Of a stretch of DNA of 64,000 nt, positions 16,582 to 58,739 are shown piece by piece. Origin of the DNA: Eledone cirrhosa (taxonomy: Eukaryota); assembly GCA_964016885.1 (NCBI GenBank), contig OZ024740.1:329282001-329346000 (forward strand), read 5' to 3'. The translations under genes were made by a program, and so were the position numbers. Below the pieces are notes generated by a model. That model did not search any database, had not been told where the DNA came from, and saw only the letters and a program-made list of their open reading frames with translations. How positions within the stretch are numbered: the stretch's first letter is position 1; every line of letters begins with the position of its first letter.

Positions 16582-16779
16582 ATGTTATTCTGGGTTGAAT
16601 CGGAGGTAACCACAATATGTAAGGTAGTCAATACATAGCAGAGTATAAAAGTGTTAATATAAAAGAGCTTCTACAGGACTAGAACTGTTTCATTCGTGAG
16701 AAATAATCAGGGAGCTCCCTGATGATTTCGCACGAATGAAACAGTTCTAGTCTTGTAGAAGCTCTTCTATATTAAAACT
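16582..16779. mobile_element. ~200-bp mini-element: two head-to-head hammerheads (palindrome 16654-16775) plus 3' tail, same family as 51.5-56 kb PLE
   Basis: Centre CAGGGAG|CTCCCTG; + strand CTGATGA..GAAA-CAG..TTG-TA. 16582-16680 matches 51501-51600. TA tracts on both sides. Confidence 0.85.
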
Positions 16780-17595
16780 ATATATATATATATATATAGA
16801 GAGAGAGAGAGATACAAATATATATATATATATATATATATATAGAGAGAGAGAGAGAGATAGATATATATGTATATCTATCGAGTTCGATATGAGCTGA
16901 TTGCTTGCCCTTCACATGGATGTGTATATACCTGACATACACTTTTTCGGACGATACGGATGTGTATATACCATATCATACACTTGAAGATACGGATGTT
17001 ACAATTCAATCTATACATGTATAACAGCACACTGAACTGAACTTACTTACTTGCGCGTGTGTGTGTGTATGTGTATGGGGCTGGGGTTAACCCAATATTT
17101 CCAATTTACATCGTCAAATTGAGACTTGACCAAGTTAGCAATTGTTGTTTTGTAAACGAAATTTCGGTGAATGCTGTGTTGGTATATTTTTATTCTTATA
17201 TTTGATGTTTTTTTCTATGACATCGCTTCGGTGTGTGAGAGTGTGTGTGTACCCACTCACACTAATTGTGACCTTCTATAGTTCTACAGGTTTTGTGCTG
17301 TGTTGATATGTGTATATATATATTTTTTTTTTTCTTTGACCTCGAGCCGGTGTATATGGGTGTTGAGTGTGTGTGTCCCCACTCACTTTAACTGGGACCG
17401 ACTGTATTTCTACAGATCTGATTAATGTCCAGCGTCCTTTGCAGCTATGGAGATTTGACAGTATTATGACCCTAACTAAAGCTGATAGCAGTCGCCGTAT
17501 TTATGACTACTGGATCTTCATATGAGGGAATAAACTCTGCGAGTGAACATTGCTAATTTTCTCCCTCATATCAAGAATTTGAAGACAATTCATTT

Positions 17596-17669
17596 TCACC
17601 TGATGAGATCAGTGATAATTGATCATGGCTTTACGATCGATCTATCTCTTATTGAAACATGTGTCGTGA
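17596..17669 (+). ncRNA. type I hammerhead ribozyme at the end of a PLE-type 3' UTR (~16870-17715)
   Basis: TCAC-CTGATGA-GAT...ATT-GAAA-CATGTG-TC-GTGA; same family as 13334-13406. Confidence 0.75.
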
Positions 17670-18454
17670 TTAAAATGATTGGAATTGTACCTTGCCTTCA
17701 GATATTCATTTTGATAGATAGATAGATAGGTAGATAGATAGATAGATAGATATATACATATTGTGTATGTATGTATATGTATATATATATGTATATATAT
17801 ATATATATATATACACATTGTGTAGAATGACTGTTGAGTCATTGACTGTTCATAAGTTTGAGCATTCATTTAATCGGTCTCCTATGCTACGAGCTTTCTT
17901 ACCTATGTACATTATATTCTTATTTTTACACTGTCCGTCAATACATCTTATGCTATATACGATGTTTCTAGTTTTACAGTTAATATGGGGGCTTAGCTTA
18001 CAGATTATGCATTTCCTATCTATACAGAGGTGTCTTTGAAAGGGTATATATTACTATCATACCATGAGTTTATTTTATTAACATTATTCAGATAAGGAAT
18101 CTTGCTAAACAAATGCAAAAACGAAGTATATATATATATATATATATATATATATAAGTATAGCTATCTATGAATATATATACACACACACACACATATA
18201 TATATATATATATATATATATATATATATATATATATATATATATAAATAAGTATAGCTATTTATGAATATACACACACACACACACACACACACACACA
18301 CACACACATACACACACATACACACACATACACACACACACACACATATATATATATATATATTAAAGAGTTAAACAATATTCAATAAGTATATGAAAGA
18401 ATGGGTTTTACAGTAGATTGGAAGCACTCTATGAGTAATAATTTTCCAGAGTTA

Positions 18455-55904: not shown

Positions 55905-55955
55905 AGATTCCTGATGAATTCTAGAGAATGAAACAGTTCTAGTCCTGTAGAATCT
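55905..55955 (+). ncRNA. canonical type I hammerhead ribozyme
   Basis: AGATTC-CTGATGA-ATTC(TAGA)GAAT-GAAA-CAG(TTCTAGTC)CTG-TA-GAATCT: all three stems are perfect; GUA cleavage triplet. Confidence 0.9.
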
Positions 55956-56281
55956 CATCTATATTATATATATATATATATATATATATACATATATATA
56001 TATATATATATATATATATATATATATATATATATATATATGCTTGTTTATTGGCAACATGACCCTCCCAAAGTCCTGTAGAATCTCATCTATATTATAT
56101 ATATATATATATATATATACATATATATATATATATATATATATATATATATATATATATATATATATATATATATATGCTTGTTTATTGGCAACATGAC
56201 CCTCCCAAAGTATAACAATATATATATATATATATATATATATATATATAGATATATATATATATATATATATATATATAT

Positions 56282-58739
56282 ATAGGAACCAGTAAGACCC
56301 CGACAGCTGAGCTCAAGCCGTTTCGACGGCTAATTCTGGACTAAATGAACATTTATCCTGGTATTTAAATAGCCGATCTTCTCAAGGGGTAATTCCATAT
56401 ATGGTCAAGGTGATTGTCAAAAATCAGTAGTAATTCTGTGGTTGCAAATTAGTAGGGGAGATGGTGGCTAAACCTGCCAGTAGGAGAAAGAGGGGAGGGG
56501 GTGGAGTAGACCCAATCAAGCGTTGGTAGTGCCAGCTACAGCTGGGCATGAGGTCAAAGAAGATACAGGGGAGGGGGAGGGGGAGGAAGTCGGAACGGTA
56601 GGTAGAACAATGGGGGGTAGAAATAGGAAAGAAAAAATACTGAGAGTGAAGGAAAGCAAATAAGTGTAAAGAAAAAATTAAATTCTACGACCTAGGTGTC
56701 AGGCTATTGTTAGGCGAGAATAAAATAAAGAAAGAAAGAAAGAAGTAAATAAATAAATAAATAAATAAATAAGGAAATAAGTATAGAACTAGGTGGGACG
56801 AATTAGGCAAGGACCCTTTTAAGAGGTATAAGTACGTAAATGATACGGTGACTGGTCAACAAAAGGGGCCAAAATACTAAAGAGACTACCACGAAATAAA
56901 CAATAAAGGTTTCCATCCCGGGCCAGCAACGACCCAGTGCAGCAAAGTGAACTTGTACGACATAATAATTCTGAGTCCCGAGAAAAATATATACTAATGC
57001 TAACTCTAAAAGATCTAAAACAAGCTACATGAAAGTTCGTACGAAATAAAGGTAGAATACGGAGAAATAAGTTCAGAATCCACCCCGCCCAGAAGAAAAG
57101 CGAAGCAAGAAATACTGAAACGAAAAAAATAAGGCACAAGTGCCACTAAGAAATATAGAGGGCACAGAGAATAGTGGGAGCGGTCGGAAAAGGGGGGCAA
57201 GTATCCGGGGTCTAAGCCAACTGCTATAAAGGGCGGAGTCCGCCAAATCTATCAAAGACTAGGGGAGGGGGGAGTGGGGGTACTAAGGCTACATGGGGCC
57301 AAAGGGCAGCCTCGGGTGGGCGAGAAAAGACGCCGACAAAGGAGAAGAGCTGGGGTAGAAGGGCAAAGGAGAGAGGGGGGAAGGAAATAAAGGATGCGAT
57401 AAATGAATACAAAGAAGATCTTACGTCTTCCTTGGCAAGCAGGGGTTACCCATTGCAAAATCGGCAACACCCCAGTTGCCGATTTTGCAATGGGTAACCC
57501 CTGCTTGCCAAGGAAGACGTAAGATCTTCTTTGTATTCATTTATCGCATCCTTTATTTCCTTCCCCCCTCTCTCCTTTGCCCTTCTACCCCAGCTCTTCT
57601 CCTTTGTCGGCGTCTTTTCTCGCCCACCCGAGGCTGCCCTTTGGCCCCATGTAGCCTTAGTACCCCCACTCCCCCCTCCCCTAGTCTTTGATAGATTTGG
57701 CGGACTCCGCCCTTTATAGCAGTTGGCTTAGACCCCGGATACTTGCCCCCCTTTTCCGACCGCTCCCACTATTCTCTGTGCCCTCTATATTTCTTAGTGG
57801 CACTTGTGCCTTATTTTTTTCGTTTCAGTATTTCTTGCTTCGCTTTTCTTCTGGGCGGGGTGGATTCTGAACTTATTTCTCCGTATTCTACCTTTATTTC
57901 GTACGAACTTTCATGTAGCTTGTTTTAGATCTTTTAGAGTTAGCATTAGTATATATTTTTCTCGGGACTCAGAATTATTATGTCGTACAAGTTCACTTTG
58001 CTGCACTGGGTCGTTGCTGGCCCGGGATGGAAACCTTTATTGTTTATTTCGTGGTAGTCTCTTTAGTATTTTGGCCCCTTTTGTTGACCAGTCACCGTAT
58101 CATTTACGTACTTATACCTCTTAAAAGGGTCCTTGCCTAATTCGTCCCACCTAGTTCTATACTTATTTCCTTATTTATTTATTTATTTATTTATTTACTT
58201 CTTTCTTTCTTTCTTTATTTTATTCTCGCCTAACAATAGCCTGACACCTAGGTCGTAGAATTTAATTTTTTCTTTACACTTATTTGCTTTCCTTCACTCT
58301 CAGTATTTTTTCTTTCCTATTTCTACCCCCCATTGTTCTACCTACCGTTCCGACTTCCTCCCCCTCCCCCTCCCCTGTATCTTCTTTGACCTCATGCCCA
58401 GCTGTAGCTGGCACTACCAACGCTTGATTGGGTCTACTCCACCCCCTCCCCTCTTTCTCCTACTGGCAGGTTTAGCCACCATCTCCCCTACTAATTTGCA
58501 ACCACAGAATTACTACTGATTTTTGACAATCACCTTGACCATATATGGAATTACCCCTTGAGAAGATCGGCTATTTAAATACCAGGATAAATGTTCATTT
58601 AGTCCAGAATTAGCCGTCGAAACGGCTTGAGCTCAGCTGTCGGGGTCTTACTGGTTCCTATTACCCACTCTACTACCTCAAGTATTGAGTACTTTGGTGC
58701 GTTATGGTCCACCTGGTTCCTTACCACATTTCCTTCGTT
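56282..58739. mobile_element. apparently perfect 2.38-kb palindrome (1187-bp arms, 6-bp spacer ACCCCA) of a non-coding PLE 3' end, with 78-nt extra tail
   Basis: 56282-57468 mirrors 57475-58661; the ORF track gives identical peptides on both strands; TA tracts on both flanks. Confidence 0.9.
58553..58646 (+). ncRNA. hammerhead ribozyme with U3:A8 core variant (mirror copy 56297-56390, - strand)
   Basis: ACCCC-TTGAGAA-GA(T)CGGCTA..TAGCCGTC-GAAA-CGGC(TTGAGCTCA)GCTG-TC-GGGGT. Confidence 0.8.

What the first reader, a model, noticed from the sequence alone, without database searches (positions are those of the whole stretch)
16582..58739. Reproducible arm asymmetry: family-specific second priming site ~40-90 nt inside the 3' end
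Seen: in each palindrome one arm reaches the true 3' tail and the other stops early at an internal TA-like motif just past the ribozyme. Independent insertions of one family stop at the same place: 16775 and 55965 (..TATATTA; 72-76 nt short), and 38841, 58661 and ~11826 (..CCTATA; ~78 nt short). Inference: because (TA)n is self-complementary, both ends of the target break can prime cDNA (twin priming), one on the RNA tail and one on an internal TA microhomology. This gives a defined route to palindrome formation.
Basis: partly seen in the sequence, partly recalled or inferred. Interest (0 to 1): 0.75.

Follow-up and report, generated by a model that had tools for sequence, protein, structure and literature searches.

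The report
Two-start Penelope insertions joined head-to-head
These mirror-image inserts are copies of Penelope-type jumping genes in TA repeats, almost always with one short and one long arm ending at fixed points, likely because both cut ends of the chromosome each copy the same RNA from two set start sites near its front end and the two copies are then joined head to head.

Summary
The palindromes belong to two Hydra-clade Penelope-like families (proteins 50% identical). In family B, 4,767 of 10,183 arms stop at the short site and 4,922 run on; 54 of 55 close pairs have one of each. This extension is the published Penelope "tail", traced in vitro to two internal RT start sites. Corrections: the long end is not the RNA's 3' tail (it lies in the 5' leader, upstream of the ORF); TA pairing is neither sufficient nor strictly required; 16775 and 55965 end 5 nt apart; 11826 is a solo arm. 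Added evidence: 12-16-nt target duplications, arms sharing source variants, either arm reaching further 5', and inner ends piling up about 30 nt below a TATA box, often with an extra G. This supports twin priming with run-off at a likely capped RNA start. My paper searches found no such model for these elements; the scan's own notes reported it earlier on other DNA of this genome. No RNA data tested it.

The parts
16584..16712 (-). Family A stub, long arm (from the inferred RNA start through the tail to the long end)
16715..16779 (+). Family A stub, short arm; hammerhead motif CTGATGA 16719-16725, GAAAC 16738-16742, predicted cut after GTC at 16752; ends at AAAACT then (AT)n
   Evidence: sequence; ribozyme activity not tested
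51500..53688 (-). Family A long insertion, long arm; 53203-53688 is the 3' part of the RT-endonuclease ORF
53689..55966 (+). Family A long insertion, short arm ending at TATATTA then (TA)n; a (TA/TG)n tract lies in the 3' untranslated part of both arms
56282..57468 (-). Family B short arm (unit 2267-3453), identical to its partner over the shared length
57466..58741 (+). Family B long arm (unit 2258-3533)
58547..58658 (+). Family B type I hammerhead fold with U3-A8 core (TTGAGAA 58558-58564), long stem II loop, predicted cut after 58641
   Evidence: three-way junction (stability not above shuffles, z -0.5); U3-A8 variant described in PMC4209133; Rfam gave no match
58572..58601 (+). TATA-like box (TATTTAAA, 58572) and initiator-like A (58601), the inferred RNA start, inside the ribozyme stem II loop
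   Evidence: sequence; inner ends of arms pile up here; promoter function inferred
58659..58741 (+). The 80-nt tail between the short site (TAT 58659-58661) and the long site (TAT 58739-58741)
38640..38841 (.). Diverged family B stub: long arm on the left (minus strand), short arm on the right ending TTTTCC then (TA)n
11777..11826 (+). Solo short arm of a B-related subfamily; not in a palindrome
10680..10725 (-). Second solo short arm of a B-related subfamily

Best explanation
The palindromes are insertions of Hydra-clade Penelope-like retrotransposons into (TA)n, each with one arm ending at a short site and one at a long site 69-80 nt further on, likely made by twin priming: a staggered cut about 14 nt wide would leave two 3' ends, each priming a cDNA at one of two fixed sites in the RNA's leader. 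Shown: family identity, the two sharp ends, one-of-each pairing, 12-16-nt duplications, shared variants, non-nested arms, and inner ends at TATA +29 to +31. Inferred: the RNA starts there and is capped; RT copies to the cap and often adds a C (read as an extra G); the two cDNA 3' ends anneal or are ligated head to head, each then templating the other's second strand. Inferred: priming on the RNA's first leader copy gives the common stubs of about 200 bp, while priming on the downstream copy of a read-through RNA gives long arms. The sites are probably set by the protein-RNA complex; 1-3 nt of TA pairing only fine-tune the register.
For: Counts and pairing. ORFs: RT plus C-terminal GIY-YIG with DKT, RWR, CxCx5C, CxxC and CxH, matching the Hydra description. 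Target duplication: 8 of 22 insertions with a non-TA base near a junction show an exact duplication of 12-16 nt, five of them 14 nt; a ninth hit was uninformative pure repeat; cross-paired control 22 of 462 (12 of the 22 came from the selected set). Same source: 11 differences in 11,626 nt between partner arms against 1,415 in 309,328 between non-partners (15 long pairs). Non-nested arms: the short arm reaches further 5' in 5 of 13 long insertions and in 31 of 70 short junctions (long arm further in 23, same in 14, 2 unclassified), while only the long arm has the tail. Inner ends: 110 of 140 (B) and 46 of 64 (A) lie at -3 to +8 of an A 29-30 nt below a TATA box. That spot is inside the ribozyme in B but at its 5' edge in A, so the shared landmark is the promoter, not the fold. 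Extra G: 80 of the first 100 listed family A arms with a non-genomic base before +1 (my count); of 20 loci fetched, 11 G ends are not explained by the partner arm, 4 are ambiguous, 2 loci are explained by it; in B 13 of 21 at +1 against 19 of 59 at neighbouring positions, p=0.02. Restart: 5 of 30 read-on loci hold a stub joined to a piece from +232 to +959 whose own 5' end is again at -2 to +7. In vitro precedent: two internal RT start sites, both strands cut and extended, dimer predicted (PMC11167929).
Against: No RNA data tested the start site, the cap or ribozyme cleavage. The G excess in B is modest: 44 G, 48 C, 8 A in the first 100 listed (C is confounded by a TCAGTC variant). 14 of 22 informative junction pairs show no exact duplication with a marker base. 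Shared variants also fit two RNAs from one locus, or later homogenisation of the palindrome. The junction sample is biased towards stubs: 20 B loci were picked as close pairs, and the script missed some long pairs (L069-71, L100, L105). Solo arms exist (window 10680 and 11777; several). The ribozyme and leader folds are not more stable than shuffles.
Confidence: 0.7

Rival explanations
1. One reading: one target end primes on the RNA's true 3' tail, the other on an internal TA microhomology that alone defines the site.
For: Both B ends overlap (TA)n by TAT, and the commonest A short end by TATAT; only 33 arms have a base other than A after CCT.
Against: The long end is internal, upstream of the ORF; most arms are stubs whose inner ends sit at an inferred RNA start only about 140 nt upstream of it; 3 of 5 TATs in the B leader are not main ends; one-base overlaps in 9 of 29 family A pairs; mismatched target bases inside 4 duplications.
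Confidence: 0.06
2. Self-priming or fold-back: one strand (a cDNA or an antisense RNA) folds on itself and is copied; the outer ends are set later by the endonuclease (self-priming proposed in PMC3846280; endonuclease resolution of the tail in PMC8557442).
For: Explains the identity of partner arms and small palindromes at the joint.
Against: A single cDNA fold-back needs nested arms, yet short arms reach further 5' in 5 of 13 long and 31 of 70 short cases. Some joints show both arms at +1, each with its own extra G (L230, L233; L278), which an antisense template does not predict.
Confidence: 0.1
3. Dual priming: a protein dimer carries two RNAs from the same source copy, each primed at a different site (two-mRNA version described for L1 in PMC2837659).
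For: Avoids two RTs copying the same stretch of one RNA; dimer predicted for the anole protein.
Against: Partner arms share all recurring variants and are long or short together: 12 of 13 insertions with a long tail-bearing arm have a long partner, against about 4 of 72 in the position-ordered sample. That is simpler with one RNA region. Not excluded.
Confidence: 0.13
4. Assembly or library artefact.
For: One pair is 100% identical over 1,187 nt.
Against: Family-specific unequal ends in thousands of copies, target duplications, variable joints, and diverged old pairs.
Confidence: 0.01

Closest known systems
Insertion unit of endonuclease-positive Penelope-like elements: inverted 5'-truncated copy plus optional one-sided tail (PMC3846280 and PMC8557442, passages read; PMC2377424, abstract and passages read)
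   Same: Head-to-head inverted copy, partial tandems, tail on one end, hammerhead in the pLTR, promoter in the pLTR, AT-rich targets.
   Different: The tail here is 69-80 nt (30-40 nt in the passages read) and behaves as a near-strict one-of-each rule; most copies are stubs ending at the inferred RNA start; those papers propose self-priming or endonuclease resolution.
Poseidon of Anolis carolinensis in vitro (PMC11167929, main text through the start of Methods read)
   Same: Two internal RT start sites bound the tail; both strands cut and extended; sites lie downstream of the ribozyme.
   Different: There the site is not homologous to the target and both strands use the same sites; here the ends show 1-5 nt of TA overlap and each insertion uses one site per strand. 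The text read does not address palindrome formation or run-off at the cap.
Hydra clade of Penelope-like elements (PMC8557442, section 11 read)
   Same: C-terminal GIY-YIG, DKT, RW[K/R], CxCx5C, CxxC, CxH, no CCHH, hammerhead, (TA)n target.
   Different: Units are 3.5 kb or more, against generally under 3 kb; no tree was built here.
L1 twin priming and dual priming (as described in PMC2837659, passages read)
   Same: Both target 3' ends prime; inverted arms within a target duplication.
   Different: L1 primes first on poly(A), then at a variable internal site, giving an inversion with deletion; here both sites are fixed and internal, the arms overlap almost wholly, and the two-arm form is the common one in the samples.

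Membership tests
EN+ Penelope-like elements | Single ORF with RT and GIY-YIG endonuclease | tested here: met
   716-aa and 714-aa ORFs with FDIESYY/YRDD and VIY..YIG motifs, 50% identical; assigned by motif, since Pfam gave 0 families and the 120 listed homologues carry no informative name
EN+ Penelope-like elements | Tandem or partial-tandem units and an inverted 5'-truncated copy | tested here: met
   3,531-nt tandem array with an inverted arm
EN+ Penelope-like elements | One-sided tail of 30-40 nt | tested here: met
   Present and one-sided but longer, 69-80 nt
EN+ Penelope-like elements | Hammerhead motif in the pLTR | tested here: met
   Core motifs in both families; no Rfam match; the family A motif was not recovered as the lowest-energy fold; cleavage untested
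Hydra clade | DKT, RWK-like, CxCx5C linker, CxxC and CxH, no CCHH | tested here: met
   SDKT, RWR, CNCPDRSIC, CNLC, CKH; one Cys only between the GIY and YIG equivalents
Hydra clade | Insertion into (TA)n | tested here: met
Hydra clade | Phylogenetic placement of the RT | not tested
   No named reference proteins were at hand
Neptune clade | CCHH motif in the endonuclease and CX2-5CxxC linker | tested here: not met
L1-type twin priming | First priming on the RNA's 3' poly(A) end | tested here: not met
   Long end is internal, no poly(A)
L1-type twin priming | Inverted arms inside a target duplication | tested here: met
   8 of 22 informative insertions, 12-16 nt
L1-type twin priming | Two cDNAs primed on one RNA molecule | tested here: inconclusive
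   Same source copy shown; one RNA versus two from one locus cannot be told apart

The most novel reading that the evidence does not exclude
Twin priming is the normal, programmed insertion mode of these elements: an RT dimer reads two fixed start sites in the 5' leader of one RNA, makes two strong-stop-like cDNAs to the cap, joins them to solve second-strand synthesis, and can jump from the cap to a new template. A conserved layout in two families 50% apart (ribozyme cut at +40/+41, short site near +60, long site near +135 to +140) would make the cap-to-cut segment a terminal redundancy like the retroviral R region, regenerating pLTRs and tandems.
Probability: 0.3. Interest if true: 0.8.

Novelty: new variant of a known kind. 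Interest (0 to 1): 0.52.

Why it matters
PMC8557442 names the formation of tandem and inverted structures as an open task for an in vitro system, and PMC2377424 states that no mechanism for pLTR regeneration is obvious. Thousands of near-identical stubs give a base-level record of where RT starts and stops in vivo, how wide the cut is, and which strand uses which site. This turns the question into specific tests. The one-sided tail itself is known.

Tried and rejected
Rfam scan: 0 matches. Pfam on the ORF: 0 families; solved structures: 0; the protein atlas gave no answer. RNA runs: no RNA holder listed. Laying contigs of three runs on 16400-17000 gave only short pieces, none spanning the insert; not used as evidence. 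A genome-wide count of arm pairs could not be obtained, so pairing rests on the first 76 Mb of contig C1. A first family A mapping used a copy that lacked the pLTR and was discarded. I first read the elements as Neptune-like and dropped this. Tandem-hairpin lead (e1-9518699): the stretches after the short and long sites are only weakly alike (B: 99 of 2,000 shuffles as good; A: 321 of 2,000), so it is not established here; the stretch after the short site is conserved between families A and B (2 of 2,000). The idea that a TAT-bearing variant drives the second family A short end failed: none of 9 partner arms has it. Independent jumping of each stub as the source of long arms is disfavoured, because arms are long or short together. 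Paper searches: 'Penelope + twin priming + inverted' listed 2 papers, neither on these elements by title and abstract start; the one paper holding both 'Penelope' and 'strong-stop' among 13 listed is on fungal Copia elements; searches listed nothing else on this mechanism. Subscription papers (for example Arkhipova 2006, Evgen'ev and Arkhipova 2005) and all supplements were not seen and may hold related models.

Full report
Setting. The window lies in a 3.0-Gb genome, is about 33% GC and is rich in microsatellites. A self-comparison shows several head-to-head palindromes in (TA)n.

Identity. The arm at 58540-58739 leads to a tandem array of 3,531-nt units with an inverted arm. The unit encodes a 716-aa RT with a C-terminal GIY-YIG nuclease; I call it family B. 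The elements at 16584-16779 and 51500-55966 belong to family A, whose 714-aa ORF is 50% identical. Both carry DKT, RWR, CxCx5C, CxxC and CxH and lack CCHH, as described for the Hydra clade of Penelope-like elements (PMC8557442 section 11). The assignment rests on motifs: Pfam gave no family and no tree was built. Both have hammerhead core motifs; B folds as a three-way junction with the U3-A8 core described in PMC4209133 (first quarter of that text read). Rfam found nothing.

Observation. In B, 4,767 of 10,183 arms pass into (TA)n at one site, 4,922 run on and 494 do neither. At the long site 15,921 pass into (TA)n and 281 run on. In the first 76 Mb of contig C1, 54 of 55 close head-to-head pairs have one short and one long arm, and the last ends 3 nt past the short site. 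Of 17 long insertions fetched, 13 show both ends as short plus long, one has a tiny partner, one is solo and two run beyond the stretch. Family A follows the same rule with a cluster of short ends (29 pairs: 13, 9, 2 and 5 at different points). In the window, 16779 and 55966 differ by 5 nt, 11826 is a solo arm, and 26019-26298 is symmetric.

The long end is not an RNA tail. In tandem copies the sequence runs on past it to the ATG, about 90 nt later in B and 45 nt later in A. This extension is the published tail: optional on one inverted pLTR (PMC3846280, passages), 30-40 nt at one end (PMC8557442, passages), and equal to the stretch between two internal RT start sites in vitro (PMC11167929).

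Microhomology. Both B ends overlap the target by TAT, about 7% by chance per end, and only 33 arms have a non-A base after CCT. But the B leader has five TATs and two are the main ends; nine family A short ends overlap by a single T; and in L039, L040, L331 and L339 the duplicated target carries a G where the template has A. Pairing probably tunes the register; it does not pick the sites.

Two cDNAs. Eight of 22 insertions with a marker base near a junction show an exact 12-16-nt duplication, five of 14 nt, against 22 of 462 cross-pairings. Partner arms differ at 11 of 11,626 positions against 1,415 of 309,328 for non-partners, and share all recurring variants. The short arm reaches further 5' in 5 of 13 long insertions and 31 of 70 short junctions, while only the long arm has the tail; a single cDNA folding back cannot give both. 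Arms tend to be long or short together (12 of 13 against about 4 of 72), which fits priming on one leader copy of one RNA.

Where the arms begin. 110 of 140 inner ends in B and 46 of 64 in A lie at -3 to +8 of an A 29-30 nt below a TATA-like box (the sample favours stubs). In B this point is inside the ribozyme's stem II loop, in A at its 5' edge, so the common landmark is the promoter. An extra G often precedes +1: 80 of the first 100 listed in A, with 11 G ends among 20 fetched loci not explained by the partner arm; 13 of 21 against 19 of 59 at neighbouring positions in B (p=0.02). That RT can copy the cap as an extra G is recalled knowledge, not from a call. Five of 30 read-on loci hold a stub joined to a piece from +232 to +959 that again ends near +1, and two hold pieces starting at +42, the base after the predicted ribozyme cut. 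I infer a capped RNA start, run-off and template jumps. Measured from that start, both families place the predicted cut at +40/+41, the short site at about +59 to +67 and the long site at +135 to +141.

Model and limits. Twin priming at two fixed leader sites with head-to-head joining explains all of the above (confidence 0.7). No RNA data tested it. Two RNAs from one locus, or self-priming with later trimming, remain possible.

Prior art. The tail and the two start sites are known. My searches listed no paper giving the twin-priming or cap run-off account for these elements; the L1 models are described in PMC2837659 (passages). I also saw the first fifth of bioRxiv 10.64898/2026.07.22.740005 and passages of PMC4245944; neither bore on the claim. 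Earlier notes of this scan reached similar readings on other DNA of this genome; they are not independent support.

Verdict. Observation confirmed; interpretation partly supported; new variant of a known kind; interest 0.52.

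Noticed in passing
window 13285-13541, 13545-14627, 23766-25975, 49905-51401, 49147-49437: Five more head-to-head palindromes of other families with a one-sided extension (about 65, 105, 90, 79 and 25 nt); 13545-14504 is a 490-nt tandem unit. Their families were not identified.
   Followed up: partly
window 26019-26298 (related pieces at 22291-22647 and 38143-38518): Palindrome whose two arms end at the same point; possibly a different kind of TA-targeting element.
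   Followed up: no
L318, L325, L327, L330, L337: Five copies lack the 62 nt between two direct CTGGTTCCT repeats in the family B tail, suggesting template slippage or deletion by homology.
   Followed up: no
G000:C2:356030084-356031910: Seven tandem matches to the family B long site with a period of 299 nt; may be repeated template jumps or a small non-autonomous array.
   Followed up: no
window 58572-58601: The family B TATA box and inferred start lie inside the ribozyme's stem II loop, so the first leader copy of a transcript would carry only half a ribozyme.
   Followed up: partly
window 58670-58692 and L181 minus strand: A stretch just after the short site (CAA-GTATTGAGTAC) is conserved between families A and B (2 of 2,000 shuffles); candidate protein-binding hairpin.
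   Followed up: partly
window 55945-56211: The end of the family A short arm with its flank is locally triplicated (56042-56074 and 56179-56211) just before the family B insertion.
   Followed up: no
window 280-479, 1262-1473, 12763-12877, 31319-31521, 43821-43999, 48023-48175, 50400-50580: A dispersed repeat of about 200 nt in seven copies, unrelated to the palindromes.
   Followed up: no
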